From a virus (taxonomy: Duplodnaviria > Caudoviricetes), in IMG/VR virus record IMGVR_UViG_3300008740_000006, positions 1 to 62,221 of that record: a stretch of 62,221 bases of DNA; one strand, given 5' to 3'. This document shows positions 3,683-48,000 of this stretch, in pieces. The notes beneath the pieces are model-generated. The model had not been told where the DNA came from and did not search any database. It saw only the letters and a list, made by a program, of their open reading frames with translations. The position numbers and the translations under genes were made by a program. Position 1 is the first letter of the stretch, and the number at the start of each line of letters is the position of its first letter.

Positions 3683-4020
3683 TTGCTTCTCCCTTTCAGT
3701 GCTTCGATCACTTGGTCGAAGCGGTCGTAGGATTCCGGCGTGACGTAGAGGAGGGTCTGGGCTCGCGGATGCGCTTCGGCTTGCACCGATACCCAGGGCG
3801 GGACCTCGGTCGCGATTGCGAGGTGCGATAGGCGCGGGAAGTGCTTGCGGATCTTGATGCGAAGCGACGGGTCCACTTCGTCGCGTCGAGTCCAGCCACC
3901 ACTGTATGTGGTGAAGGTGGAGGTCATCGCGCATCCGTTGTGCGCATCGAGGATCATCAGCGCACGTTCGCTTCCTGCGCTCACGCGCAGCGTCTCGTTT
4001 CCAATCTTGATGGTTCGCAT
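3679..4020 (-). CDS. Hypothetical protein
   Basis: 113 aa, GGAG SD, tightly packed in operon. Confidence 0.6.
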   Translation of the reverse strand: MRTIKIGNETLRVSAGSERALMILDAHNGCAMTSTFTTYSGGWTRRDEVDPSLRIKIRKHFPRLSHLAIATEVPPWVSVQAEAHPRAQTLLYVTPESYDRFDQVIEALKGRSK

Positions 4021-4125
4021 CTACTTCTCTCCAAGTAGGTGCAGCCATGCGATGGCTGCGATGACGATGCACAAGCAAGCAGTGCTTGCGATGACAGTTG
4101 CGAGTCCTGCGATTGCAGGTGTCAT
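4021..4125 (-). CDS. Small membrane peptide (34 aa)
   Basis: MTPAIAGLATVIASTACLCIVIAAIAWLHLLGEK fills the gap exactly; ATGA overlap with upstream gene. Confidence 0.45.
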   Translation of the reverse strand: MTPAIAGLATVIASTACLCIVIAAIAWLHLLGEK

Positions 4126-4328
4126 GCTTCACCTTCCTTGTTCCACCAAGTCTGGTCGATGCCGCGACATTGCAGCCTTGCGTTGTGTCGCTCTACTAGA
4201 GCGGCGAGGCCTTTGATTCGTTCGACGTTCCGGTTGTGTTCCTTGGCCGCAGCGCGGACTGCCTCGGTCTTGCCAATCCATTCGTCAGTGGTGATGATCG
4301 GGACAGTATTCTCTTTGGTTCGTTCCAT
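4122..4328 (-). CDS. Hypothetical protein, first gene of the early operon
   Basis: 68 aa, CCAACGAAAGGAAA leader. Confidence 0.65.
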   Translation of the reverse strand: MERTKENTVPIITTDEWIGKTEAVRAAAKEHNRNVERIKGLAALVERHNARLQCRGIDQTWWNKEGEA

Positions 4329-4474
4329 GCCGGTGTTTCCTTTCGTTGGGTGAGTTGGGTGTGTCGCTATCAGTTTCGGTTTGCGATTGATCTTGTGTGA
4401 GAACCTCTACCCTCTCCCCCGAGCCGGGGGTTGTAGGCGTGCATCAGACGCCTCGTTAGTTGATTGGTAGATGC

Positions 4475-4591
4475 TGCCCCCAACAGGACTCGAACCTGTA
4501 TTTCCGAACCGTAAGGTTTTACCTCGTTGGTCAAACAAGGTTTAGGAGTTGACCAAACTCCACGGCGTCCTACCAGTTAGACGATGGGGAC
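4475..4591 (-). ncRNA. tRNA-like RNA (Glu/Gln-type body) with anticodon arm replaced by a structured insert
   Basis: Acceptor GUCCCCA/UGGGGGC+A, D arm GUCU-AACUGGUA-GGAC, T arm ACAGG-UUCGAGU-CCUGU; CCG/CGG stem encloses three hairpins; no anticodon loop and no encoded CCA. Confidence 0.85.
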
Positions 4592-6158
4592 TCACATTAG
4601 GTGTAACTCGCTTAGCTTCCATCCAAAGCAACACGCTTGTATGCATGCTGCATTGGATGGAACCCAAAAGGGTTCCCAGCGATGGAAGGTTGCATCGCTG
4701 CATCGTGCCCGTTGGTCTCAGGCTTCGCGGTATCCAGGCTGGCTGGAAGACGCTGCGAAGTTGCTGCACGGTTCGATCTGCATCACTGCGACTCGCGACC
4801 GCACACTAGCCTGCACTTGCGTGAAGGGGAACGAGCATGCCACTCACTCTCACGGTGAGGTGAGTGGGTGAGTGCATGACTGGCTCGCGTATGCGGTCGC
4901 GTGTCGCGACCACTGCAATTGATCGGTCTGCTTATGGTGCCGCCCCGGCGTTAGTGGATCGTTCTCCCGTGGACACCTTGCATTGAATCCTCAACTGCAT
5001 GCGTGCCTGCTTCGCGGTTGAAGCCATGAAGCGGATGCGCTGTCGGTGCCGCGACTCTCGATCAGTGGAGAGTCACGCGGACGGTGACGATGCGCGCACT
5101 GCGTGCGTTGAGGAAGTCAGGACCCCACTTTTACCGCCGGTATCCCGGGCGCGTGCAACCGCGCCGTCGACCGACTCCCCTCCCCGCTAGCGCAGGAAAG
5201 CCTCGGAAGTCCCTCGGACCCGGCTGCATGACACGCGCAGTCCTGCGCGCCGGTTCGGGACGAGAAGCTTATGAACCGCCTGCGCTCCCCGCGCCTGGAT
5301 CGCCCGCGTGCCCGTCGGCCCCGTAGCGGGTGTCCCGCTGCCGCTCACGCGCGGCAACAGGTAGTAGGATGCCCCAGGTTCCACCCAGGTTCCACCGGAT
5401 GAACCCGATACCTAGATAAGGAAACAAGACTTTGCCCCTTTCCCCTGCAATATCAGGCACTTAGAGCGATCCATGCCTGGGCCACTTTCTGGCCTGGACG
5501 GCCCTGGCTGCCTGGGTGCGCTCCACCTGGGCGACCCCGCCACACCCAAGTTGCGTGGCACATGCGTGTCACACATGCCGCACTCAAGTGGGATCGTTGT
5601 TAGGCGTAGCTTGTTTACGTCTGACCGAGTGCCGAGAGGAAGTGCGAAGGAACGAGCGGGTAGCAACGCTCTTTTTTACAGTGCTCCTACCAACTCATTG
5701 ATCTCATTGCTCTTGTTAGTCCGAGGGTCGTGCGTCTTCATCGGGTTGACTCGACGCTGGACTGCGTTGCTGCTTGGGTCAGGTGCGAAGCACATGCTCG
5801 GTTCCAAGCGAACCAGCAGTGGGTTGCGACAGTTGTCGCTGGGGAGTTGGCCGTCTCGATGAGACAAGAGACACCCTTCTTCTGGCACATGGGTTCAGCT
5901 AGATGGGGATGGTGGAAGTGGATGACTGGCACTGGTGCGTCGAGTAGTCCAGTGGTCCGCGAGTGGTCCGACTGAGCAGGACTGCTCGCTGAAACGAAGC
6001 TGCATGACACCGTAGTGAGTTGCCTGACATTGCCATGAGTTGGGTGCCTGCACTACTAGAACATGAGGGAGAAGGGCTGTAATGCCCGTTGCAGATAGGT
6101 AGGGAGAGGGTGTAGTTTGACCGGGTAATTAGGGTGACTAGTAGGGGTGATTAGAACG

Positions 6159-6638
6159 ATGGGAAACAAGTCGAATGTCGCTGACCCTGATCAGCTTACG
6201 ATCAAGCAACGCAAGTTCTGTGATGAACTAACGTCAGGCAATAGCTCAACCATGACCGCTGCTTATGCTGAAGCGTATGACGTTGTCCTCGACAACCCGA
6301 AGGCGAAGAGAAGGGCGAGTAGGGAAGCATCGAAGCTTGCGAAACACCCGGGGTGCGTATCCTATATGGAGCGCGCGAGGGCAGCGGTGGCGGCTCAACG
6401 ATCCCGCCGCGACCTGGGCACCCGGGAGATGGTGAAGCGTAGGCTCATCGAGGAGTCAGAGAGTGCCGACAAAGCCTCGGATCGGATCGCTGCTCTTCGC
6501 TTGTTAGGTCTTGAGGCATCGATGTTCACCGAGCGAGTCGAGGTGACCGATGATGCGAGCAAGCTGAGTGACAGTGAGGTGATTGCCGAGATCGAAGCGG
6601 CATTGCTCCAACTAACAAAGGGTGCAACTAACGAGTGA
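6159..6638 (+). CDS. terS: Terminase small subunit
   Basis: LTIKQRKFC...TAAYAEAY HTH, DRIAALRLLG...MFTERVE pattern; upstream of terL. Confidence 0.85.
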   Translation: MGNKSNVADPDQLTIKQRKFCDELTSGNSSTMTAAYAEAYDVVLDNPKAKRRASREASKLAKHPGCVSYMERARAAVAAQRSRRDLGTREMVKRRLIEESESADKASDRIAALRLLGLEASMFTERVEVTDDASKLSDSEVIAEIEAALLQLTKGATNE

Positions 6639-34311: not shown

Positions 34312-36027
34312 ATGAAGAGAAACACCTTTGGTGCGAATGGGGCTGGTGGTCATTCATCAGCCCCTTCCTTTAGTAGCGTGATCGATATTGAGGATGAGTT
34401 GAAGGGTTGGGGTGACGACATGCTGCTTGAAGAGATGCAGCAACCCCGCTTTCCTCATATGCAATATCTGGTCTTCTCGGAGATCAATCGCAGGAAGGAA
34501 GATCGAGACAGGGTTAATAGAGAGAAGCAGGCTCAGGCCGCTCCCCAGGTTTCGATGGCAGAGGAGGTTGTGATGTCTGCCTCTGCTCCTCCCGGTGGCG
34601 CACCTCCGGGTGGAATCCCTATGCCGCCTCCCGAAGGAATGCCCCCCGGTATGCCTGTGGGTATGCCACCGGCTGGACCCCCCGCTCCCCAGCAGTTGCA
34701 AGGACCCGTTGGTATCGAGCAAGCATACCCGCCTGTCGAACGCCCTCTTCCCGGCACTATGGTTCAAGGAGCCAACAGGGGTGGTCTTGTTAAGGGATAC
34801 AATCAGAGCCAGAGGCTTCCGTACTATTGGGAGGTTGATGCTCAACGTAGGCGGGACAGGAGGGAAGAGGAGGCCAAGATTAGGGCTGGTCAGGAGTGGG
34901 AAGGTTTTCCAACTTGGTTGGGTGAAGTGCCCGGTAGAGTAGGTTCTTTCCTGGGGGATGCTTTTAGTGCGGTGGGAGAAGCCAAAGCGGCACGAGGTGC
35001 GGTACAGCGGGCCGCTGGTACTCATTTCATGCTTGGAACTCGTGCTGGGGAGGAGTTTGAGAAAAGTCTATTGGTTCCAGACTCCTCTTCGGAGGAAGTG
35101 CTTTCTACTCAAGATCCATCTTTAGTTGATGTATCGCTCACTTCACCAGTTGATGGATTATCCACGCAAGTTAATTCGTCACAAGATCCAGCCTTGAATG
35201 CGATTGTTGATGAGAGGGCCGCTCTGCTTGCCAAGGAAGAAGCTGCCCGGCGGGCCGAGGCTGAGCGCCGAGTTGCGGTGACGGGAAGAGTTCCGAGAAC
35301 CGAGGACCCTCTTGATGCTTACAGAAAGTCGTTGGGGGCTATTTCTGCGTATAGTGGTGACAAGGAGAGGGAGATCCTTGAAAGGAGAAGGTCCGAGCTT
35401 GAAGAGACTTTCGCTGGACCGAGTGATGCAGACAAGAGGCGAAACATTCTCCTTGCTCTTGCCGAGGGCTTCCTAGATCCCAGCGTCAATGAGGAGACAG
35501 GTGTAGCAGCGGGACTTGGTAAAGGTATTAGTAATGCAAGGAAGGTTATACGGAACAGGGAAGTTAGTGAAAACGAGAGAAAGAGGAATTTGGCAACAGC
35601 CCGCATTGCTCTTGATCAAATGGGTATCGAGGTGTTCAAGGAAGAAGATAAGTCTGCCAGAGATATTGCTCTCGCCAGGGCCAAGGGTGAACTTGAGATA
35701 GGTCTTGCTGGGCAGAAGCAAGCTTCTGCAAAGGCTATTCAGGATTCGATCAATACTGTTCACAAGGAAATTGCCGAGGGGCGTGCTGCTGGTTACATGA
35801 AGAGGGAGAGTCTGAAGGGTATTGATAAGGCAATTTTAGAGATTGAGGAGACTATTAGTACTAGATATTCTCTTATGAGCCCTGATCAAATGAGTGATCA
35901 TGAGCGCAAGATGAAGGAGAATTTGGAGCAACGATTGCAGGGTTTGTATCTTGCCAGAAAGCGGGTTTCGGGTGTAGATATGCGGATCAATCGCGACTTT
36001 GTTCCCAGGGCGAATCAAGGTGGTTGA
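34312..36027 (+). CDS. Internal virion/ejection protein
   Basis: YLVFSEINRRK, Pro/Gly-rich linker, coiled coil. Confidence 0.65.
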   Translation: MKRNTFGANGAGGHSSAPSFSSVIDIEDELKGWGDDMLLEEMQQPRFPHMQYLVFSEINRRKEDRDRVNREKQAQAAPQVSMAEEVVMSASAPPGGAPPGGIPMPPPEGMPPGMPVGMPPAGPPAPQQLQGPVGIEQAYPPVERPLPGTMVQGANRGGLVKGYNQSQRLPYYWEVDAQRRRDRREEEAKIRAGQEWEGFPTWLGEVPGRVGSFLGDAFSAVGEAKAARGAVQRAAGTHFMLGTRAGEEFEKSLLVPDSSSEEVLSTQDPSLVDVSLTSPVDGLSTQVNSSQDPALNAIVDERAALLAKEEAARRAEAERRVAVTGRVPRTEDPLDAYRKSLGAISAYSGDKEREILERRRSELEETFAGPSDADKRRNILLALAEGFLDPSVNEETGVAAGLGKGISNARKVIRNREVSENERKRNLATARIALDQMGIEVFKEEDKSARDIALARAKGELEIGLAGQKQASAKAIQDSINTVHKEIAEGRAAGYMKRESLKGIDKAILEIEETISTRYSLMSPDQMSDHERKMKENLEQRLQGLYLARKRVSGVDMRINRDFVPRANQGG

Positions 36028-39000
36028 TAAGAAGTATGGCTGGTAGGTACACATCTAGTGAACTAGAGGGGTTCCTTTCTAGCGCGACAGATTTGTACGG
36101 GAATCCACTGTCTAGTGGTTCTATCTCTGGTGCAAATCGCGAAGACCTCTTGAGGTATCTTGAAGAGGAGTCGCGCAAGCGGGGTATCAACCCGGCTCTT
36201 GCTGCTTCCATGATGGAGCAGGAGTCCAACTTCGATCCTTCGATTGCCTCTCGCGTGAATGAGGACAGGGAGGGTGAATACCGGGCCGCTGGCTTGTTCC
36301 AGCTTGCGCCAGAAACCGCACGCGAGCTTGGTGTCTCCAATCCCCTTGATGTTCGCGAGTCAATTCGCGGTGGTCTTACATACATAGACAGACTGTTGAC
36401 CAAGTATGGTGATGATCCAATTCTTGCCGTTGCAGCCTACAACGCTGGTCCCGGTGCTGTTGATAAGTATGGAGGTATTCCTCCTTATCAAGAGACTGAA
36501 GACTATGTGAGAAGAGTGACTGGTTCCTTTGAGGACAGTCAGGGCAACACTATCAATCGCTACGAAGAGAACATGCGGCGTTTCGGGGTTCCTCTCCCCG
36601 GAGAAGAGGAGGCTCCGGTTGATGAGGTTGCACGGGCAGAGCCCGTAGAGGAAGAGGCTGAAGATACTTACGAACTGATTCTTCCTGACGGAAGTTTCAT
36701 GAATGTTCCAATTGGAATAGACAAAGAGGAGGCAAGAGAGTCTGCGCGGGAGGCATATCCAATGGCTTTCCGTGGCGAAGTGTCAGAAGAAGAAGAGAGC
36801 AACATGCTCGACGCAGGTCTTTCTGCTCTTTATCGCTCGGTCTACGGAATTCCAATTGGTGCATCGTATGTGGGTGCCTTGTTCGGAGATGATCAGGAAG
36901 CTTTTGATCTGACCTCAGAGAGACTCCACGGTATATCCAAAACGGCTCATGGATTTGCTCCAGGGCTAACAACTCTCGATGATGTTTCAAGGGCATACGA
37001 AGATGAGGGCGTCCTTGATGCTGCGGCAAAGTTCATAGAATTCAGTGGCGAGAAGATTGGAGAGAGTCTCGGGTTCATGCTTCCAAGTATTGTTAGCGGT
37101 GCTGCACTTGGATGGCTTGGCGCACTGGCCGGAAGTGTCATTGCCCCTGGAGTCGGAACAGTTGTTGGTGGTCTTACAGGAAGGGCACTTGGTGCTGTTG
37201 TTGGCAGAACTATGGGGTTCCTTGGCACCCAGGTATTCAACTACCTGTCGATGAATATCGAGCGTGGTGTTGAGAACGGTCAAGTCAGTGTCGATGACTA
37301 CAATCTAATAAATCAGACAATGGCTGCTGGAACGCAAGCTGGACTCGATGGTCTTCTTGTGTTGATGGCGGGTGGCAAGGTTGCTCTCGGTGTTGGGACA
37401 GAGATTGCAACGACTGCAGGAAGGCAGGCGATTACTCGCGGCGGGGCACAGGGTCTTAGCAAGGGTGGGATTGAGGCTGTTAGGAATTCCTTTGCTCAAA
37501 CAATGGCAGGACTAGAAGCCCTTAGTCCTGTCAAAAGAATGGGTGCTGTGATGCTTGAGGAGAGCGTTGCAGAACTTGGACAGCAAGCAATCGAGCGTGG
37601 TGCTGCTGGTCTTGAGGTGAGCCCTGCCAGCAAGGAAGCAAGAGACGAATACCTAGAGGTACTTCTTTCTACAATTGGTCCGTCTTTTGCCTTTGGTGGA
37701 ATTGGTGGAGTAAGTGCGAAGTGGTCGCAGACCAAGCAGAAGAGGGCAGAAGAAGGTTTAGTAAAGTCATACGAGGACAGGGCTCTTGTTGTCAACAACC
37801 AAGTCAAGAGTGCCGAGGAAGCAGAGGCCAATGAGCTAGAGCGTGTTGCTGGGGAGGCGGCTGAGGCTGGTCGGATCCCCCTTGAGGCTTCCCTTCTTGC
37901 CGCTCCAACGGCAGCGGATATACACACGATAGCGAAGGACCGGAACATCAACTCAGAGGATGCTGGCTTCCATCAGTTCTCAAGAAGAACTGTCGGAAAG
38001 GAACATCTTGATGACATGAACGCGGCGGAACTCAAGCAGGTTTATGACAAGCTTGCTTCGATGCCGGTTCAAGATGCGCGCATCAGCTTCTCTGTTGCGA
38101 ACAACCAAGATGCCATCGACGTTGCGTCTCGCATTCGGTCCAACAGCAGTAAGAAGAGTGGAGCGATCCCTCTATCGGATACTGATTCGCAGATTAGAAC
38201 TGCGATCCAGCAGACCGGAAAGCTCAATTTCAAAAATGTTGACAAGAAGGTTGTCGATGAAACTGTTGCAGCATACAGGCGAGCAATGGTCAATCTTCGA
38301 TTGGTTGAAAAGAAGGATGGAAAGCTAAGGCTTGTTCGCACGAGGCCAACCACTTCCTCTGCGCTGACCGAAGTTGAATACGACAAGGTTGTTGATTTCA
38401 TTAACCTTGAGGGTCGCTTCCCCAACCCTGAAGAGTTCGGATCTATTACCGGAATCAGGAATGAGGAGTTCTACGAACTCGCCATTCAGGATGCTGTAAA
38501 TCGTAATGACATCAAGCTGGACAAGGATGGCTATGTCCCGGTAGAGCCAACGTCACAGAGGGAGGAGAGATTCTTCCTGCGTGTGAACGGTGTCACAGAG
38601 GACAAGTCATACAGAACTGAGGCTCAGGCGAATGAGGCTCGTGGAGAGCGGATCAGAAGCTTTGAGGAATCTGCCGCAGCGAGAACAAGGGAGGAGCTTG
38701 CCGCGCGTGGTCGAGGGATTCTTCCATCGAGACTTACTGCGCCAGCAGAAGAGCTTGCCCCCAGTGTCGAAGTTGTTTCTGCGGACACGCCACTTCTTTC
38801 CAGTCCGAAGGCTGATCTTGTTACCGAATACGAATATTCGGTGGAAGAGTCTCCGCAGTGGGTGGTCAGGGATGATACGGCTGGCTCTGAGCCTGTTGGA
38901 AATTACGACAACGAAGAGCAGGCAAGGAAGAAGGCGAAGCAACTCGGTGATCAGAAGAGTTGGGTTGTTCGTGACAGCAATGGTGTGGTTGTTAATACAT

Positions 39001-42000
39001 CTGGAAGCAGGGCTGAGTCAGATGCGTATATCAAGCAGCAGTCTGAGTTGGCTGGCGGTATCGCGAGGGATACATACAGAAACAGAAGGGAGGGAGAGGG
39101 TCCCTATCCGACCGGGAGGGAGAGGGTTTCGGGACCCGAACTTGGTGATCCCCGTCCGGGGATGCTCCCGCGCTTAAGGAAGGAAGCGACCTGGGAAGAG
39201 AGAGGTCTTACGCAGGAGGAAAAGAAGAAGGCTAGGGACAAGAGCAATGCGATTGCTCGCTCGATCCACAAGGGTTCAAGGATTGCTTACGAAAGGGCGA
39301 AGAACAAGAAGAGGCGAGAGCTTCTCGCTGGCCGCGAGGCTGTCCAGCGGAACTACACCTATGAAAGGGAGGATGGATTCGTTGTCAATGAGACAACAGT
39401 CACAGAGAGTGGTCGCAGGAGTAAGCCTGCAACTCGGGCCTTCTTCTCCGGCACTGATCCCTCAGAGGCAGAGACTCAGAGGCAGTCTTACGAGGCGTCG
39501 AGAGTCGGTGGTGAGTCCTTTGGTGGTGATCTAATTGAGGCGGGTGTCACTGCTGAAAATATAAGGCAGCTTCGCGATGACCCGAAGGGTTTTGCCGAGA
39601 GGCTAAAGCCGGATGGCACGAACGCTCCTCCCGCACAGGAAGAGTTGTTGGACAGGTTGGCGAAGGCGATTGAGAAGGAACTTGCCGGTCGAAACCTGCG
39701 TGGAATAGGTGTCAAGATTGTCAGGGGGATGAAGGGAGCGGAGGCTGGATTCAACAGTGTCACCCGTACTATCTCTCTTAGCCTTGATCCCGGGATGGAG
39801 AATCTAAGTGACAAGGAGATACTAGAAGAGCTTGGTCGAAGGACAGATCATGAACTAATTCATTCCCACAGGAAGTCTGGTTTGATTTCTCCAGGGGAAT
39901 GGAAGGTCTTCGTCAGGTACGCGAGAAAGGTTCCCATCAAGGCGAGTGTCTTGAAGCGGATCAATGATAGAAGGTTGGAGAATGGCCTTGATCCCAAGCC
40001 GGTGAGTACGACGTACTACGACTTGGCCCTTGATACCTATGGTGTGAAGGGAGAAGCTGAGGGCTGGTTCGATGATGACTACAACGAAGAAGCTGTGGCT
40101 TTCATGCGTCAGGATTTCGCAAATGATCCTGCGGCAATCACAGGTAAGCCTGCTGCTTTGTTCAGAAGAACTGCGAGCGTAATTGGGAAGCTCAGAAATG
40201 CACTGAACGGCGCTGGTTACAAATCAGATTCTGAAGTCTTTGAAGTTCTTTGGGGCAAGGAGATGGGTAACCGTCTTGCCGCTGACAAGATGTTGGATAT
40301 CTGGTGGCTCAAGAGACGTAATCAGCCTGAGTACAGAGATCTTGTCCAGTACATTGTACTGGCTCAAGAGGCTGGAGAGCTAGGTGCCGCAGAGAGAGCG
40401 GGTGCGTTGAACCAAGAGGGACTCGCTAGGCTTGAGTTGATTCGGTCAAGGATCGGTGATGCAGTTCTCGATCCGGTAGCTGAGTCCAAGCTGAGAAAGT
40501 ACACGGATCTCTTTGGCAAGAGGAAGAGGATTCCGGTTAGATACACAGATGCTCCCCCCGAAGAAGATGTTGAAGAGGGGGTCGTTGTCGAGGATCAGGG
40601 CACTGGTCGCGCTGCTCTTCGTCGGGAAGACCTTGTTCAAGATGATGGAGTTCAATCAAGGGCTAGGACTGGTGGCGAGTATGGACCCAACGGTGATTGG
40701 TATGCCGGTGGGCAGTGGATAGCTACAACTGAGCTTCCAAAGAGGGAGCGTTCAAAGATAGAGAGGTCTGCCTCAAAGAAAGAGCAGGTTGAGTTCTTTG
40801 AGGGGGGTGTCGAGATTGATCCTGGGAGGATTCCTATCGTTGCTCGTGGTGGTGGAACATGGCTTAAGCCAGATGGAAGATTGAATTATGATTTCATTGA
40901 AAGACAAGGATGGAGTGACCAGAAAATTGCTGAAGCAGAGAGTATGTCTGAGGCGTACCTTCGTGGTGAGCGTTTTGTTGGAGCAGTAGAGCATCCAATT
41001 TTGGCTAGTTTTCAGGATGCATCAAGAATGATTTTGGCAGGGATGAGTGTCCCTGGTGCAATGCTGGACAAATTTTCACCCGATGTTCGTGATAGACTTG
41101 AACGATTAGCTCCACAAGAACTTGGAGTTCCTATTACCGAAGGCACTGGTCGCGCTGCGTTGAGAAGAGATATAACACCAGAGATACAAGAGGCGGCTCG
41201 TCAGGAAACTAGCAGGGGTGCTGATGCTGTAGCGGACAGGATGGATGCGATCTTGCCGGAGGCTGAAAGGCTTACAGATGGTTCGTCTACTTACACTGCG
41301 GGGCAACCGGATGGTGTTCCCTGGACCGATCTTTCTCAGACAGAGTTGAACGAGCGAGGTGCTGGCATCAGAGATGTCGGAGAGCTTAGAGAAGCTCTCG
41401 TTGATATATGGCAGGAGACGCTGAATCGTGTGAGCATCGCAGCGAGGGATGCCGTAGAGGAAACGGGAGCATCGTTCAGTCTTCTTCCAGAAGAAGTGGA
41501 CGCTGCATTCCGCCTCCCCCTTAGCGCACAGCTTTGGTACGAGTTGGGTGGTGAGACGTTTGGACAAAATCTTCCACCCCTGGATAATCGCACTATGGGT
41601 CTTTTCTTTGATCTAATCGGTGCAACTTCTGCGCGGACTGAGCCAAGAGATAATATGTATCGTGCGATTTCGGTTCTTTCTCAGGTTCTAAGGGAAGTTC
41701 CAGTTGATGTAGATCTTGCTATGACTGGTCCCGTTGGGAAGGCTCTCTCTCGCGATGGTGTAGATGTAACTAATTTGGATGGAAACAAGACTGGTCAATT
41801 TAGTGGCACTCTCATGCTTACGTCTGGCATGCCAGTTCCTGTTCCATTCCCTGTAAATGATGTTTGGGTGGGTCGCATTTATGATGTAACAGAGAAGCAG
41901 CTTGCTGATAATCCCAGCTTGCATGAAGTGATGGCAGTTCACCAGACTCTTCTGACAAAGTGGATCAACGAGAACTCACCCCAAAAAATTCCTCACCAAC

Positions 42001-45000
42001 CCTGGCAGACACAGGCTAGAAACTGGGTTCAGTTGCGAACTTCCGATCAAGGTGTTGATACGTCTGGTTCACTTGAGAACATCAGGGGTAATGATTATCG
42101 GTCTGAGTGGGCCAATATGATTCAGCTTCTCAAGTCTGCTGGCGTGGGAGGTATTGATGGACAAAAACTTTCCATCGATGCACTCCTAGACCCCAAGTTG
42201 GTTGACGCACTTCGTCCAACTGTTCCCGTCTTCCGCAAAATTCCGAAGGCGACGGTCGAAGTAGGTACCTTGCTTACGGATACGGGTCGTTCAGCTAGGA
42301 TGCTGTTTGACTTAGCCCAGTCTGTTGGTGACAAGTTGTCGGAGAGGGAGTATCTGGCAACTCTTACAGGTCCGATGTCGGCTTCAGCGAAGGGCAAGCC
42401 AACCCCGTGGGAGGAGTTGGTCCGTGCGATTACTGGTCGCTCCGATAAATTGTCGCGGATTGTTAGTGCAAGAGTTAATGCACCATTCGCAGTAGCTGGA
42501 ACATATGAGGGTGCTGTTGCACCTAACTTGCGAATACCACTTGGTCAGATTCTGGGCGCAGGTGTAGTTCTTACCGATGAGCAGATTGAAATTTTCAATG
42601 CGATTGCTGGTGAGCATTTGTCGCAGGCAGCAATGGCGGCTAGCCATGTAAGGCTTTTGAATGATGGTGAAGCTGTTCCGGAGGGATCGACAAAGGGTTA
42701 CTCAGTTTTCCTGAATGGTGAGATCGAGATGACTGAAGATCTTCTAAGGTCTTTAGATCAAGCATTGCCAGAAGGACATTCTCTTAGTGGATATGAAGTT
42801 CCTGGTGGATATGTCTTAGATGTTAATCCACGCTGGGATGATGATGGTCCGCTGGGAATTTCTCAGGATGAAATAGACGCTGCAATTGTTTCTTCTGGAT
42901 TTGACAAGCTTGGCATTCCTGTTGGAGTTAAGAGACATGCCTATCGGAGTGTGTATACTGAGAATACTGATTACTCTGTAATCAAAGATCGGTTTACAAG
43001 GGGGATTTTTGAAGATGTCATCGAAGAACTACAAAGACTTGGAGTCGGAGAAGAGCAAGCTTCTGCCGCAGCCGTCGCAACGCGAGCAACAGGAGGCGAA
43101 ACAGGATTTGATTTACTCGGGAAAGTTTCGGCTGTCACCAGAGGCAGAGCGAAAACTGTCCTCAAGCGTTACGGGAGGCGCCTTCGTAATCTCGCCCACG
43201 CCGAGGGTGCGATCCAGGGAATCGCGAGAGACGTAGAGAAACGTCAGCAAGTTTATCTTGAGAAAGCTTCAAAGAGGTTAATCAAGGCAGGCCACCTAGA
43301 TGCTAGGCGTGTCCAAACGTCTTCTTTTCGTTCAGCAAGAGATGTTCGGTTGGGACTGCCTGCGCGCAGAACTATTTCAGATCAGCCAATTGATCCTGTT
43401 GCTTCCAAAACATCTGAAACTTTCCCTGGCACAGGTGAGGGGAGAGGTTTTCTCTCCCAACTTCCACCACATCTAAGAGACAAGACTACCGGTTACCCTC
43501 TATCCACTAAAGATACTGGTCGCTCTGCTGTTCGTCGTGGTGATGTTGGAGTGCCAGATTCCTTTAACCAAGTTTTGATTGTTCATGGTCCCTGGGCAGA
43601 AAGAATTCTTAGTGGTGAGAAGACCGTTGAGACTTCTGGTCAATCCCTTAAGGCTGATGGGGCTGCGCCCGGATGGGTTTTACTTCGTGATGACAGTGGT
43701 AGAGCCGATGGTGCTGCGAAGCTTGGTAAGCGAATACTCTACAATACTGAAGAAGAGTTCTTGGAAGACCAAGACAAACATTTGGTTACTAAGGGTGATG
43801 AGTTCTATTTTGGTAACCGTGTTCGTACATATGGATATCCAATTGAAGATGTTATTCGCTTTGATGAGTCGGTAGATATTCCTCCGCTTGGTAGGGATCA
43901 GAGAAGAATAAAGCCTCTCGGCAAGCCTATTGGTAACCCTCTCTCTACTGAAGGCACTGGTCGCGCTGCTGTTAGGCGTGAGCTAATTGGTATTACACCA
44001 GATGATGTTTCTGGAATATCCGATACGACATTCTTTCATGGTACTGATGCTACTGACTTGACCACTATCAGGTCTGGTAGCGAGGGTGGTTCTCTTGGAA
44101 ATGGTATTTATCTAACACCGTATGCTGAAAGGGCGACAGGCTGGGGGAGGAATGTTCTTCCTGCGAGAGTTGACATTAAGAATCCATTGGTTGTTGATAC
44201 ATCAACGGATGATTTTCGTAATCCGGCAGTAGATTTGCTTGTTCAGCTTGGTGTTAGTGAGGATGGTGCGTTTAATATTGTAGAGAAGGAGGAGGAGGAA
44301 TACGGGTATGTTAGGAACAAGATTAGATCGAGAGCAAGGTCGCAGGGCTATGATGGCATAGTTCAATTTGTGGATGGGAATCTTTCTGAGGTTGTTGCGT
44401 TTAACAAGAATCAGGTTTCTATCCAACCCGCTCCACTCGACACCGAAGGCATTGGTCGTGCTGCTGTTCGGCGTGAAGAGATGGGTATCCTTAGCCCGGA
44501 TCAGGCGAGGGCTCAGGCACGCACTGCCTCGTTTGATGAGTTAACAGGCAAGTGGTCTGACGGTGCATTCATTCCTGTTGGTGACTGGGAAAATTCTGAG
44601 TTCTTAGATCTCAGCAAGGGTCTTATTCCTAGTGCGAGAGAGATGAATGAGAAAGGTAAGAAGTTTGGTGATCGCGTTCAGAAGAATCGGGAGTTAGATG
44701 AGAACGGTGGTTGGACTGACAGGAACGGCAGGTACCGTAGGCTTTTGGATGGTACGAAGGCGAGGGTTCGGATAGACATACCCTTCTTTAATGAGACTGG
44801 TAAGTACGTTCAGTCCATTCACGGTGAGGGCTCCAGGCTTCCCGGAATTTCTGTTGGTTATGATTCGGTTGTACGGCTTCGTGGTCCGGTATCGTTTGAA
44901 TCTGATGAGGTAAGGGCGGGGGAGGTTCTGAATGAAGGAGAGTACAAGTCTCCGTTCGCAACAGTAGAGGGGGAGCTTACTCAGGATAGGTCTAGGCCCA

Positions 45001-48000
45001 AGGATATAGACAAATGGACTCCTGTTGGATTCGATCCTCACAAGGGAGTTTACTTCTACGACAAGAAGAACGGTCGTGAGGTTATCGGCGGAACGGATGC
45101 TTACTCAGTAGGCAATACGGTCTATGTCAGAGAGGTTGAGTACGGGAAGAGAAAGCTAAGAGCATCGACTCGCCCGCGTAGAAGTTTTGTTGGTCGTGCT
45201 GCTGTTCGGCGTGAAGAGTCACAGGATTCTGTCCGCAATCCCAGTGATAGAAGATCTCTGAGTATTCCCCCCTGGAAGGAGGCTGAGGCAAAGGAGAGGC
45301 GGCATGATGCTGGTGGCCTTTGGCCTTTCACTTGGGGCTTCATCAAGTTCAATGCTGAAGGTGAGTACAGGAAGGCAGGGAATGGTGTTCCCCTCTTAGT
45401 TCCCTACGGCTCGACTGCCAAGTATGGCGAGAGACACATTGAGTTGCCCAGGGTTCTTCCGAATGGAACCGAGAGGCCGAGTCATGATGAAGAGATTCGC
45501 AACAATACTCCCTACGAAAACTGGAAAGAGTTTATCCAGGGATTTGCAAGGTCTATGGGCCTGCAGCCCAGGGGGCTAAAGGGTGGTGACATTATTCCCC
45601 TTCATCAGCCATTTGATAACAAGATGGTTTTCTTCTGGGATGATGCCGAGTTCAAGAGTCCCGGTGTTGTTGTTATGGAGTACAGGAATGGAGAGGTTGT
45701 TGATGGCGTTGAACTCCCCGATCACTACTCACTGACTACTGCGTTTGTTTCAGAGAGATACGGTGAGAACATGCCTCCTCCCAGTAAGTTTACTGGTCCG
45801 CAGAGAGGCAAGGGTGTTAAGACCAAGTCGGTGATGGTGTTTGAAAACTATCGTCGCCCGGAGGTGGCGGAAGCTTGGTGGAAGACCCAGTCCTCAAAGG
45901 GCAGGTTCGCTGTTGATCGAAGTGCAGCTTACAGTTCAGTTGCTCAGAAGGATGCAGTAGGCAAGCTTGTTCCCCAGGGAGAGCCGAACGCAGATAGCCT
46001 GATCGGTCGCATGATAAAGGCAATCATGTGGCGACAGGAGTACGACATTCCTTGGATCGAAGAAGCGAGAATGCGCTACCTCGATAGGTACGAAAGGATT
46101 TTCACCCAGGGAGTTTCTGCCACAGAGAAGCGCATAGAGAAGATGAGGGCAGATGGAAAGCTTGGACTAACGGTCTACGAGATGGCATCCGTTTCTGCTC
46201 ACGCTATGGCGCTTCTGGTTGATCGGGTCGGATCTCTCACGGAGAACGCGATGCTCTTCGGCATCCCCGTATTCTCCAAGCTTGAGCTACCCGGTGGTCA
46301 CGCATCAGAGGGGTCTGTCTACATAGAAGAGACTGAGCTTGTTAGCGAGACTCGTTCGAACATCCCCGTTTACAATCCAGAGACAGGTTCGATTGAATAC
46401 GGAAAACATGTTGCTCCCAATCCTGATGCTTGGTCTGGAACTGGTGGTATCTGGAAGATACTTGGGACGATTGGTCGCCCTGATGAGAATCGGAGCGTGA
46501 AGACCTTTGCCTTTGGTCGTGCAGTTAGGGCGTACAACAAGCTCAAGTATGAGAATAAGCCGGTCCCGTTTGATGATGAGACAATTCGAGAGGGACTTCA
46601 GATTGGCTGGGAAGATCCAGAGATTGTTGTTGCATGGGAAAACATGCAGAACTGGAACAAGGGAGTGGTCAAGTTCCTTGTTGATACAGAGACAATAACG
46701 AAGGAAGAGGCTGCTGTTTGGGTGGAGCATGCTGACTATCTACCGTTCTATTTGAACCTAGACGGTGAGATGACAGAGGAGATGCAAAGGGTATTCAGGG
46801 ACAAGCTGAACAAGGATTCCTCGTATCGCTTCTTGGATAGTATCCTGCCTACTACTCCTTCCAAGAAGTACAGGGGATTCAGCCAGGGCGAGTTGGTTGA
46901 TCCCATTACTGCCTTGATGAGGAACACGAATGCTCTTTTGACTGCTGGTGTTCAGAACCTTGCAGCAAGAAGGGCTATCCGAGATCAAGAGATTCATGAA
47001 CAGGCTCGCAAGGTGGATGCTCCGACTGCGTCTACGGTGAGTGTTCGCGAGAAGGGCAAGGTGGTTCATTATGAGATTGATGATGAGCCGATGCTTCGCA
47101 CAATGATGGGATCCTTTGATGGTGTTGCCCCGGAAGTTCACGGGTTGATCAAGGCAGCTTCTATTCCAGCAAGAGTTCTCAGGGAGATGGTTACGAGGAT
47201 GCCCGATTTCATGTTTGGAAATACGGGTCGCGATTCAGTCTTTACTTACAATGTTCATGGCACAGACAAGAATCCAGTTAGTGCCTTGTACAGTTCCTAT
47301 TCAATGCTTTTTGAAAGACTGATCAATAGATACAAGGGGGCTAGGACTGGAGATCCAACAAAGGGATTCAGTGAGATCTATTCGATGATCAAGAGAACTG
47401 GAGGTGTTGGCGGTTACGAGATGAGAGATACGGACCTCAACAGTATCCAGCGTAAATTTATGCGTGGCATAAATCAGGAGAAGAATGTAGTAGCTGTGAT
47501 CGGAAAGATGTGGGATGCCCTTGGAGAGGCGAGCAACATTGCTGAGAACATTGCTCGCGAGAAGGTGTTTAGAGATTCCTATGAATCTGCCAAGGCAGAT
47601 TACATTACGATGGGTTTGTCCGAAAAGGATGCAGGCATCCAGGCAATGATGGAGGGTGGGCATCAGGCTGTTGAGGCTTTGAATTTCGGAAGGCACGGAA
47701 ATTCCGAGGGCTTGAAGCTCCTCACATCGGTTGTTCCGTTTACGAACTCACGCATTCAGGGACTAGATGTGTTTGCAAGGAGTGGTATAAGCGGCAGGAA
47801 TATCTTGCGAAAGGATTCGAAGGCTGCTCGCACTGCCCTGGTGAGGCGTGGTCTTTACATTGCTGGGATGAGCATGCTCTACGCGATGATGACCCACGAT
47901 GATGATGACTTTGAAAGACAACCTCTCCATGTAAAGGCTGACAATTGGCTGATCCCGTTGGGTCCGTTCGCTTCCAAGGATGTTAAGTTCCTTGCTATTC

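What the first reader, a model, noticed from the sequence alone, without database searches (positions are those of the whole stretch)
4475..4591. tRNA scaffold whose anticodon arm is replaced by a kissing-loop multi-way junction
Seen: the minus strand gives a canonical tRNA body. It has a 7-bp acceptor GUCCCCA/UGGGGGC with discriminator A, U8, a D arm GUCU-AACUGGUA-GGAC resembling tRNA-Glu/Gln, a short variable region AAAU and T arm ACAGG-UUCGAGU-CCUGU. In place of the anticodon arm, a CCG/CGG stem encloses three hairpins: GGAGUU-UGGUC-AACUCC, ACCUUGUU-UGACC-AACGAGGU and AACC-UUAC-GGUU. The first two loops are complementary (UGGUCA/UGACCA), giving a loop-loop kiss or an alternative 8-bp helix UUGGUCAA/UUGACCAA. 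There is no anticodon and no encoded CCA. It heads the early minus-strand operon. Known: tmRNA and YrlA are tRNA mimics but differ in topology; engineered tRNA scaffolds carry cargo RNA in exactly this position. Inference: a natural tRNA-scaffolded RNA, possibly a decoy for anticodon nucleases or tRNA-sensing defences, a ribosome/synthetase ligand, or an RNase P/Z processing signal for the early transcript.
Basis: partly seen in the sequence, partly recalled or inferred. Interest (0 to 1): 0.9.

Follow-up and report, generated by a model that had tools for sequence, protein, structure and literature searches.

The report
Phage tRNA-Glu mimic with inserted domain
A marine phage encodes an RNA shaped like a glutamate tRNA whose decoding loop is displaced by a folded insert; the same module recurs in a few otherwise dissimilar phages, so it looks like a real, apparently undescribed RNA whose job is unknown.

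Summary
It is the most diverged member of a small family: 9 loci, 8 distinct sequences, about 4 sequence types, all from marine viral or metagenome contigs.

Across the family the tRNA frame is kept by compensatory changes in the acceptor stem, T stem and hairpins 1 and 2, and by a covarying Levitt pair 15-48. The frame is closest to tRNA-Glu. A 45-66 nt structured insert sits at position 31/32. A relic UUC stands in anticodon register in 8 of 9 loci; the window has UAC.

It is probably not a spliced tRNA. There is no conserved anticodon loop, no bulge-helix-bulge motif and no encoded CCA, although four other tRNA genes checked on related contigs encode CCA.

The complementary loops are conserved but show no covariation, and hairpin 3 is unique to the window.

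New here: the element always comes with a near-invariant 70-92 nt downstream domain. In 8 of 9 loci it also follows a sigma-70-type promoter and a leader hairpin.

It matches no Rfam family except a partial fit to tRNA. The scan has noted tRNA-framed phage RNAs on other DNA, but no look-alike of this sequence. Function is unknown.

The parts
4606..4673 (-). Long imperfect hairpin directly upstream of the element. It occupies the position of the leader hairpin seen in relatives. No sigma-70-type promoter was found upstream of it in the window.
   Evidence: Hairpin-type matches at 4606-4673. The upstream 100 nt fold at -44 kcal/mol. No minus-strand promoter match in 4000-6300.
4475..4591 (-). 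tRNA-Glu-derived tRNA-like element, 117 nt: acceptor, D arm, remnant anticodon stem, 45-nt insert, 4-nt variable loop, T arm, discriminator A, no CCA.
4567..4582 (-). D arm GUCU-AACUGGUA-GGAC (element positions 10-25), with A14, A15, G18, G19 and A21.
   Evidence: The Levitt pair A15-U48 changes to G15-C48 in L096.
4545..4561 (-). Hairpin 1 (positions 31-47), GGAGUU-UGGUC-AACUCC. The UUGGU loop motif is invariant in the family.
   Evidence: Pair 38-46 of alignment A1 shows AU/UA/CG.
4521..4541 (-). Hairpin 2 (positions 51-71), ACCUUGUU-UGACC-AACGAGGU. Its loop is complementary to the loop of hairpin 1.
   Evidence: Three stem pairs show changes on both sides.
4507..4518 (-). Hairpin 3 (positions 74-85), AACC-UUAC-GGUU. 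It is specific to the window and holds the relic anticodon-loop segment CUUACGG.
4483..4499 (-). T arm ACAGG-UUCGAGU-CCUGU (positions 93-109).
   Evidence: Pair 49-65 shows GC/UA/AU across the family.
4398..4474 (-). Near-invariant downstream domain. Closing helix UCUACC/GGUAGA starts 3 nt after the discriminator and encloses hairpin P (AGGCGU-CUGAUGC-ACGCCU) and hairpin Q (CCCCCG-GCU-CGGGGG). It ends in GGUUCUCA.
   Evidence: blastn, alignments, consensus fold.
4125..4328 (-). First ORF of the minus-strand operon, 68 aa, with no family match. It starts 147 nt after the element.

Best explanation
The element is a conserved, non-decoding RNA derived from a tRNA-Glu(UUC) gene.

What it is:
- It keeps the full L-shaped tRNA frame: acceptor stem, D arm, T arm, elbow and Levitt contacts.
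- A 45-66 nt folded insert sits at position 31/32. The remnant anticodon stem now carries two hairpins whose apical loops are complementary (UUGGUCA and UGACC/AACCAG). The old anticodon is left as a relic that is partly base-paired.
- It is one half of a composite non-coding module: a host-type promoter and leader hairpin (in relatives), then the tRNA-like body, then 3 nt, then a near-invariant three-helix domain, then small ORFs and, in some phages, ordinary tRNA genes.

Proposed mechanism (all steps inferred, none shown):
1. Host RNA polymerase transcribes the module first.
2. RNase P recognises the intact acceptor/T-arm/elbow and cuts at G1, removing the leader.
3. A cut after the discriminator frees a stable tRNA-shaped RNA and gives the downstream domain a defined 5' end.
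4. The freed RNA cannot decode or be charged, so it acts by imitating the body of tRNA-Glu towards a tRNA-binding host factor.

I put the identity at about 0.85: a real, selected, tRNA-Glu-derived non-decoding RNA. I put this particular working model at about 0.45, which is the confidence given for this explanation.
For: Fold:
- The fold is as described.

Family:
- Nine loci, 8 distinct sequences, were found by pattern scans.

Covariation on alignment A1 (8 of the 9 loci; L091 was dropped because it is identical to L087):
- 88.6% of cells are paired, against 80.4 +/- 1.0 in shuffles.
- Eight pairs show changes on both sides, against 3.2 +/- 1.4 (0 of 500 shuffles reach this). Slid controls give 0-5.
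- RNAalifold independently recovers the acceptor, D and T stems.

Tertiary contacts:
- Pair 15-48 is A-U in three types and G-C in L096.
- L096 also lacks the D-loop GG and has U at T-loop position 56.

Relation to tRNA-Glu:
- Among 33 bona fide tRNAs, the frame of all 4 types scores best against tRNA-Glu.
- UUC stands in anticodon register in 8 of 9 loci.
- Infernal fits L095 to the tRNA model at 39.2 bits, with a 66-nt insertion in place of the loop.

Evidence that it does not decode:
- ARAGORN -i gives Val, Glu (4 loci), Leu, Arg and nothing (2 loci).
- L094 and L096 have G32 G33, so there is no U33.
- No CCA is encoded in 9 of 9 loci. All 4 other tRNA genes whose 3' ends were printed (L096 Ile and Pro, the odd L094 tRNA, L011 Cys) encode CCA.

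Module:
- The downstream domain has 55 invariant columns and folds as a closed multi-helix domain.
- A promoter TTGAC[AT]-16/17 nt-TA[TG]NNT ends 67-70 nt before G1 in 8 of 8 non-window loci.

Distribution:
- It is the only sequence shared between dissimilar contigs.
- It is absent from 5 of 5 near-complete TerL relatives and from 80 TerL-related loci.
Against: - No RNA data exist: no holder of this DNA is on record as RNA, so transcription, RNase P cleavage, 3' cleavage and stability are all inferred.
- The window's own copy lacks the promoter seen in the other 8 loci.
- The kiss has no covariation: 3 pairs are invariant and 2 are broken in some members. A competing local UGGU/ACCG helix forms in 7 of 8 sequences.
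- The interior of the L087 group is no more stable than shuffles, with z from +1.26 to -0.69.
- All relatives were found with patterns that include the downstream domain or its first 8 nt, so the co-occurrence of element and domain is partly by construction.
- The family is small, with about 4 independent sequence types, so the statistics rest on few events.
- The strongest conservation lies in the downstream domain, not in the tRNA-like part. The tRNA-like part may therefore be only a processing handle.
Confidence: 0.45

Rival explanations
1. Pure punctuation. The tRNA-like body is only a cis-acting RNase P / 3'-endonuclease entry site that trims the leader and sets the 5' end of the near-invariant downstream domain or mRNA. 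The excised tRNA-shaped piece has no job of its own.
For: - It always stands between a leader and the downstream domain, 3 nt apart, with no terminator before the following ORFs or tRNAs.
- The downstream domain is far more conserved than the element.
- In the L093 lineage and in L096 the unit also holds ordinary tRNAs that need the same enzymes.
Against: - RNase P needs only the acceptor/T-arm and elbow, yet the insert keeps invariant loop motifs and covarying stems.
- The remnant anticodon stem is also kept.
Confidence: 0.25
2. A working intron-bearing tRNA (Glu in relatives, Val in the window). The insert is removed and the product decodes.
For: - ARAGORN -i calls tRNA-Val(UAC) here and tRNA-Glu(UUC) in 4 relatives.
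- UUC stands in correct register in 8 of 9 loci.
- L095 passes the Rfam tRNA threshold.
Against: - The hosts look bacterial: the nearest cultured relatives by TerL are Pelagibacter phages and cyanophages, the promoter is sigma-70 type, and an endolysin is present.
- That bacteria lack a splicing route for 45-66 nt tRNA introns is established knowledge that I recalled, not something I tested.
- There is no strict bulge-helix-bulge motif in 5 of 8 sequences, and none at the junctions in the other 3.
- L094 and L096 lack U33.
- The predicted anticodons disagree, even between near-identical L093 and L095.
- The 'spliced' stems carry mismatches.
- No CCA is encoded, unlike the 4 other tRNA genes checked.
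- The window has a Glu body with a Val anticodon.
Confidence: 0.07
3. A DNA-level site. The complementary motifs TTGGTCA and TGACC would be an inverted repeat bound by a protein, or the block would be an attachment or replication site, and the RNA fold would be incidental.
For: - The two motifs are invariant without covariation.
- Their start-to-start spacing is 23 nt in the window and 32-33 nt elsewhere, roughly whole helical turns.
- The downstream domain is conserved in sequence rather than by compensation.
Against: - Compensatory changes in five helices and in a tertiary pair make sense only for an RNA.
- Hairpin Q of the downstream domain changes CG/UG/UA while staying paired.
- A dedicated promoter points into the element.
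Confidence: 0.07
4. A decaying tRNA pseudogene or insertion scar with no function.
For: - The anticodon loop is disrupted and there is no CCA.
- The window copy fails the Rfam threshold.
- Relatives of the window phage lack it.
Against: The frame is kept by compensatory and tertiary covariation across types that differ at many positions, and it is retained in three dissimilar genomic contexts together with a promoter.
Confidence: 0.04

Closest known systems
Canonical bacterial/phage tRNA-Glu (Rfam RF00005)
   Same: - Acceptor stem, D arm with U11-A24 and U13-G/A22, 4-5 nt variable loop, T arm, and elbow and Levitt contacts.
- tRNA-Glu is the best match among 33 real tRNAs.
- One relative passes the Rfam threshold.
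   Different: - A 45-66 nt structured insert at 31/32.
- No conserved 7-nt anticodon loop and no U33 in two types.
- No CCA, although the other tRNA genes checked encode it.
- The window copy scores only 15.9 bits, and only partially.
Phage T4 RNAC and RNAD (small stable RNAs of the T4 tRNA gene region)
   Same: They are small phage RNAs encoded among tRNA genes whose roles are unknown (passages read in PMC3014915 and PMC9697503). Earlier notes of this scan name them as the nearest precedent for tRNA-framed phage RNAs.
   Different: - I did not compare sequences or structures.
- That T4 RNAC and RNAD have a tRNA-like frame is recalled and taken from unchecked notes, not from a call.
- T4 RNAC and RNAD are classed as late RNAs (PMC9697503). 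This module follows a host-type promoter.
Bacterial and phage YrlA / Y RNAs (Chen et al. 2014, PMC4201824, passages read)
   Same: It is a non-coding tRNA mimic, also found in phages, with D- and T-arm-like parts. One member is cut by RNase P and receives CCA.
   Different: - In YrlA the 'acceptor' is a closed stem-loop, and the RNA ends form the Ro-binding helix with a GNCGAAN0-1G motif.
- YrlA genes lie next to a Ro60/TROVE gene.
- Here the 5' and 3' ends form the acceptor, the motif is absent from the module, and the genome has no TROVE gene.
tmRNA
   Same: It is a tRNA-like domain joined to further structured RNA.
   Different: - In tmRNA the tRNA-like domain lacks an anticodon arm and encloses pseudoknots and a tag reading frame between its two halves.
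- ARAGORN -m and Rfam find no tmRNA.
- No CCA is encoded here.
Engineered tRNA scaffolds and MALAT1 mascRNA-type processing
   Same: In an engineered scaffold, cargo RNA sits at the anticodon end of an intact tRNA frame. In the mascRNA case, a tRNA-like fold in a longer transcript is cut out by RNase P/Z. Both points are recalled.
   Different: These are artificial or eukaryotic. There is no Rfam mascRNA match.

Membership tests
tRNA (Rfam RF00005) | Score at or above the gathering threshold of 29 bits | tested here: inconclusive
   Window copy: 15.9 bits over 4475-4549 only. Relative L095: 39.2 bits over the full length, with a 66-nt insertion. In the scan of L094, L095 and L096, only L095's element was listed at E up to 1.
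tRNA (Rfam RF00005) | Acceptor, D and T stems with elbow and Levitt tertiary pairs | tested here: met
   Acceptor 100%, D stem 96.9% and T stem 100% of cells paired, with compensatory changes. Pair 15-48 covaries A-U/G-C.
tRNA (Rfam RF00005) | 5-bp anticodon stem closed by a 7-nt loop with U33 and a conserved anticodon | tested here: not met
   The loop is replaced by 56-69 nt. L094 and L096 read GGUUCGG. ARAGORN -i gives inconsistent anticodons.
tRNA (Rfam RF00005) | 3' CCA (encoded or added) and aminoacylation | not testable with these tools
   CCA is not encoded in 9 of 9 loci, while 4 of 4 other tRNA genes checked encode it. Addition and charging need experiments.
Intron-containing tRNA, archaeal type | Bulge-helix-bulge motif (two 3-nt bulges around a 4-bp helix) at the exon-intron junctions | tested here: not met
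   A permissive script search found no strict motif in 5 of 8 sequences. Hits in the window, L094 and L087 are not at the junctions and are not homologous.
Intron-containing tRNA, bacterial group I type | Group I intron, hundreds of nt, in the anticodon loop | tested here: not met
   The insert is 45-66 nt. There is no Rfam intron match at E up to 10. The usual size of group I introns is recalled.
YrlA / bacterial Y RNA | Encoded next to a Ro60 (TROVE) gene | tested here: not met
   No PF05731 match in the complete 62-kb genome.
YrlA / bacterial Y RNA | GNCGAAN0-1G motif and a Ro-binding helix formed by the RNA ends | tested here: not met
   The motif is absent from the module in 4 of 4 types. 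One chance match lies 121 nt upstream of the L094 element. The ends form the acceptor stem.
tmRNA | Detected by ARAGORN -m or the Rfam tmRNA models | tested here: not met
Phage tRNA-framed stable RNAs (T4 RNAC/RNAD kind) | Stable small RNA excised from a tRNA-containing transcript | not testable with these tools
   No RNA data. Ordinary tRNAs lie in the same apparent unit in the L093 lineage and in L096.

The most novel reading that the evidence does not exclude
This is a previously undescribed RNA module that moves between unrelated marine phages. It consists of a tRNA-Glu body whose decoding loop was replaced by a self-locking two-hairpin knob, fused to an almost invariant three-helix domain. 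It is made first after infection from a host-type promoter. It acts in trans as a tRNA-Glu impostor that captures or blocks a host factor which reads the tRNA body, such as a tRNA-directed defence nuclease, GluRS or a Glu-tRNA-dependent enzyme. Its excision by RNase P also launches the early message.
Probability: 0.2. Interest if true: 0.8.

Novelty: new variant of a known kind. Interest (0 to 1): 0.6.

Why it matters
Phages are known to carry tRNAs and a few tRNA-shaped RNAs of unknown role. This family is a clean, testable case. The tRNA frame is kept by selection down to tertiary pairs. The decoding end has been rebuilt. The RNA is welded to a second, almost invariant domain and to a strong promoter, and it is shared by phages that share nothing else in the stretches compared.

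If it is a decoy or a processing device, it would show how phages use the host's tRNA machinery beyond decoding. It would also add a natural counterpart to the engineered tRNA scaffold. The downstream domain may prove the more important part.

Tried and rejected
**Searches that found nothing**
- Default ARAGORN and Rfam at gathering thresholds on the window: nothing.
- blastn of the region, and of L094's module, against 50,697 phage records: no match.
- Viral-contig patterns requiring the D arm plus T loop, both loops plus T loop, the T arm plus flank, or the 5' body plus T arm: 0 hits each.
- The 220-aa neighbouring protein has no relatives in viral contigs. The 68-aa neighbour has only two near-identical homologues.
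- 80 TerL-related loci: no intron-type tRNA, and no nhmmer or blastn match to the element or to 4001-6200. Profile searches with A1, A2 and A3 against all held loci found only the known members and re-fetched duplicates of them.
- Five near-complete TerL relatives: only one 21-nt match at E = 0.0105, taken as chance.
- Earlier scan notes by sequence: 0 windows.

**Sequencing runs**
- 11 holders in 6 studies, all marine or seawater metagenomes. No RNA holder is listed.
- Laying runs X3-X6 showed diverged variants: X5 has a contig over 4463-4820 with 5 differences, and X6 has one over 4490-4572 with 11. The tool does not print the contigs, so the variants could not be aligned.

**Ideas rejected**
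- Archaeal host and bulge-helix-bulge splicing.
- A virion RNA polymerase reading hairpin promoters: the 4253-aa ORF is a polyvalent protein with SLT, ART-PolyVal and LPD38 domains.
- Pairing of GCAUC at the start of the downstream domain with the loop of hairpin P: the loop centre varies while GCAUC does not.
- A small ORF in the downstream domain: length differences of 1 and 3 nt, and no conserved ATG.
- Nitrospinota as host: this rests on one 5-kb contig binned into a MAG. I do not rely on it.

**Literature**
- Searches returned no description of this module.
- I read passages only of PMC4201824, PMC10690425, PMC9697503 and PMC3014915.
It might hold this motif.

**Errors corrected**
- mislocated two motifs. 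It was corrected.
- MAFFT misplaces the helix I 3' strand of the L087 group by one column in A1, and the first 11 nt of L094 in A2. This lowers the counts for helix I and for the closing helix.
Full report

- a 7-bp acceptor stem, a D arm and a T arm;
- a CCG/CGG stem enclosing three hairpins.

The energy is -41.4 kcal/mol, against a mean of -33 (sd 3.65) for 200 dinucleotide shuffles. That gives z = -2.30, and 2 shuffles fold as well. The 56-nt interior on its own gives z = -3.04 against mononucleotide shuffles.

The standard detectors miss it. ARAGORN finds 0 genes in the window. Rfam gives 0 matches at gathering scores. A permissive Rfam scan gives only a 15.9-bit partial tRNA hit on the T arm and acceptor.

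With introns allowed, ARAGORN calls the exact span as tRNA-Val(UAC) with a 45-nt insert at 31/32. Hairpin 3's UUAC therefore sits where an anticodon would sit.

**2. What kind of genome is this?**

The window is a whole IMG/VR virus record of 62,221 bp, estimated 100% complete. It is a tailed phage with a large terminase, portal, head protein and primase/helicase.

Its 4253-aa ORF is a polyvalent protein with SLT, ART-PolyVal and LPD38 domains. It is not an RNA polymerase.

By TerL, the nearest cultured phages are Pelagibacter phages HTVC027P and HTVC023P (54.5% and 49.9%) and cyanophages (46.8%). The DNA is held by marine metagenomes from six studies.

The element lies at the 3' end of a roughly 1.7-kb GC-rich stretch without convincing ORFs. 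It is 147 nt before the first gene of the minus-strand operon.

**3. Finding relatives**

Several searches gave nothing:
- Eighty loci around related terminase genes (64-77% identity) hold no homologue.
- Five near-complete relatives hold none.
- 50,697 phage records hold none.

Laying four metagenome runs on the region showed diverged variants. One loose end kept the T arm and the six letters after the discriminator but had a different acceptor strand.

A pattern built on that observation found 9 metagenome loci. Four of them (L087, L090, L091, L092) are true homologues.

Their alignment revealed a second conserved block downstream of the element. A pattern from that block found four viral contigs, L093-L096, plus the L087 contig again inside a MAG.

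In all there are 9 loci, 8 distinct sequences and about 4 sequence types:
- the window;
- L094;
- L096;
- the L087 group (L087, L090, L091, L092, L093, L095).

One caveat applies. Every relative was found with a pattern that includes the downstream block or its first 8 nt. The linkage of the two parts is therefore partly by construction.

**4. The tRNA frame is under selection**

I aligned 8 sequences as A1, leaving out L091 because it is identical to L087. RNAalifold recovers the acceptor, D and T stems.

My explicit structure, with the kiss written as a pseudoknot, gave these results:
- 88.6% of cells are paired, against 80.4 +/- 1.0 in shuffles.
- Eight pairs show change on both sides, against 3.2 +/- 1.4. 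None of 500 shuffles reaches this.
- Slid controls give 0-5 such pairs.

Individual pairs with several pair types:

| Pair | Pair types seen |
|---|---|
| 2:71 | AU / GU / CG / UG |
| 4:69 | CG / UA |
| 49:65 | GC / UA / AU |
| hairpin 1, columns 38-46 | AU / UA / CG |
| three pairs of hairpin 2 | changes on both sides |

Tertiary contacts covary too. The Levitt pair is A15-U48 in three types and G15-C48 in L096. L096 also lacks the D-loop GG and has U at T-loop position 56.

This rules out a decaying pseudogene and argues for a true L-shape.

**5. It derives from tRNA-Glu**

I compared the frame with 33 distinct bona fide tRNAs, taken from a MAG and from the phage contigs. All four element types score best against tRNA-Glu. 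The MAG's tRNA-Glu(UUC) shares its first 14 nt with the window element.

Counting back from the T arm, positions 34-36 read UUC in 8 of 9 loci and UAC in the window.

Infernal threads L095 through the tRNA model at 39.2 bits, above the threshold of 29. It keeps a 4-bp anticodon stem (CCGC/GCGG) and places a 66-nt insertion where the loop should be.

**6. It is probably not a spliced tRNA**

- ARAGORN's 'anticodons' disagree: Val, Glu (4 loci), Leu, Arg and none (2 loci). They disagree even between near-identical L093 and L095.
- L094 and L096 read GGUUCGG, so they have no U33.
- A permissive search finds no bulge-helix-bulge motif in 5 of 8 sequences, and none at the junctions in the rest.
- The hosts look bacterial.
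- None of the 9 loci encodes CCA. All are followed by GCAUCUACCAA. By contrast, all 4 other tRNA genes whose 3' ends I printed encode CCA: L096 Ile and Pro, the odd L094 tRNA and L011 Cys.

**7. The insert**

All types share the following:
- hairpin 1, capped by UUGGU(C/A)A;
- a longer hairpin whose apical loop carries UGACC or AACCAG;
- a UU-N-CGG segment before the 3' strand of the remnant stem.

Hairpin 3 is unique to the window.

The two loops can pair as follows:

| Member | Watson-Crick pairs | With G-U allowed |
|---|---|---|
| window | 8 | 8 |
| L094 | 5 | 6 |
| L096 | 5 | 6 |
| L087 group | 4 | 5-6 |

Two fixed 10-nt windows in shuffled window interior reach 5 Watson-Crick pairs in 3.9% of trials.

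The kiss shows no covariation. Three pairs are invariant and two are broken in some members. A local UGGU/ACCG helix is possible in 7 of 8 sequences, the window being the exception. The L087 group's interior is no more stable than shuffles.

The kiss is therefore plausible and conserved, but not shown.

**8. The module around it**

*Downstream.* I aligned 7 sequences as A2, leaving out L091 and L095. The alignment has 55 invariant columns.

The consensus fold is a compact domain:
- It is closed by UCUACC/GGUAGA, starting 3 nt after the discriminator.
- It holds hairpin P, with 6 bp and a 7-nt loop whose centre varies.
- It holds hairpin Q, which changes CG/UG/UA while staying paired.
- The L087 group has an extra arm capped by GGAA.

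Length differences of one nucleotide exclude a coding explanation.

*Upstream.* In 8 of 8 non-window loci, TTGAC[AT] is followed by 16-17 nt and then TATACT, TATGAT or TATCCT. This ends 67-70 nt before G1. A leader hairpin with some covariation follows.

The window lacks this promoter and instead has a long hairpin of -44 kcal/mol.

**9. Distribution**

The module is the only sequence shared by the window and the other contigs. L096 shares only about 430 nt with the L094 lineage.

The neighbouring genes differ:
- In L096: thymidylate synthase, ribonucleotide reductase and a RuvC-like resolvase, with tRNA-Ile and tRNA-Pro nearby.
- In the L093 lineage: an aminotransferase, an epimerase and an exonuclease, with tRNA-Leu and tRNA-Thr downstream.

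The contigs are short, so 'unrelated' holds only for the stretches compared.

**10. How it most likely works**

Shown:
- The fold is selected.
- It descends from tRNA-Glu.
- It lacks a working anticodon loop and CCA.
- It is linked to the downstream domain.
- In 8 of 9 loci it follows a promoter.

Inferred:
- Host RNA polymerase transcribes it.
- RNase P cuts at G1.
- A 3' cut frees a stable tRNA-shaped RNA and defines the 5' end of the downstream domain.
- The freed RNA imitates the body of tRNA-Glu towards a host factor.

A leaner rival is that the tRNA-like part is only a processing handle for the downstream domain, which is the better conserved half.

**11. Comparison with what is known, and novelty**

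It is not YrlA and not tmRNA. It matches no Rfam family other than an imperfect fit to tRNA.

The nearest precedents in kind are T4 RNAC and RNAD. These are small RNAs from the T4 tRNA region whose roles are unknown (passages of PMC3014915 and PMC9697503).

My literature searches found no description of this module.

Earlier notes of this scan report tRNA-framed phage RNAs with inserts on other DNA. None shares sequence with this family.

I rate it a new variant of a known kind, with interest 0.6.

Noticed in passing
window 4592-6100: About 1.5 kb of GC-rich (about 58%), hairpin-rich sequence without convincing ORFs lies between the element and the plus-strand packaging genes. Short motifs around ATGCAG/CATGC recur. 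Variant contigs show 1-nt indels at 5310-5359, which fits non-coding DNA.
   Followed up: partly
window 4398-4474 (-), and the same block in L087, L090-L096: A near-invariant three-helix RNA domain (closing helix UCUACC/GGUAGA, hairpins P and Q) lies directly after the tRNA-like element. It is more conserved than the element itself and may be the main functional part.
   Followed up: partly
L094 11559-11634: An odd tRNA gene about 40 nt after the downstream domain. ARAGORN calls it tRNA-???(atga). It has a 6-bp stem, an 8-nt anticodon loop and an encoded CCA.
   Followed up: no
L099 (G006 contig C96) 257-363, minus strand: A 107-nt match to the Rfam tRNA model (41.2 bits) with extra sequence in the middle. 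It lies next to a tRNA-Ile(UAU) on a 1.9-kb MAG contig and may be another insert-bearing tRNA-like gene.
   Followed up: no
L084-L086 and L088: Other metagenome loci share the T arm plus CAGCATCT and a CCTTTCTGGTT motif, but have no recognisable 5' acceptor strand. They are unexplained tRNA-like 3' ends.
   Followed up: no
window 36024-48785 (+): A 4253-aa polyvalent protein with SLT transglycosylase, ART-PolyVal ADP-ribosyltransferase and LPD38 domains.
   Followed up: partly
L087 = L097 (contig binned in a Nitrospinota MAG): A 5-kb contig carrying the phage module, its promoter and a tRNA is binned into a bacterial MAG. This is either mis-binning or a weak host hint.
   Followed up: partly
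window 4656-4675 and upstream of the promoter in L094 and L096: The 11-mer AACCCTTTTGG is shared upstream of the module in the window, where it forms a hairpin, and in relatives, where it lies about 190 nt before the element.
   Followed up: no
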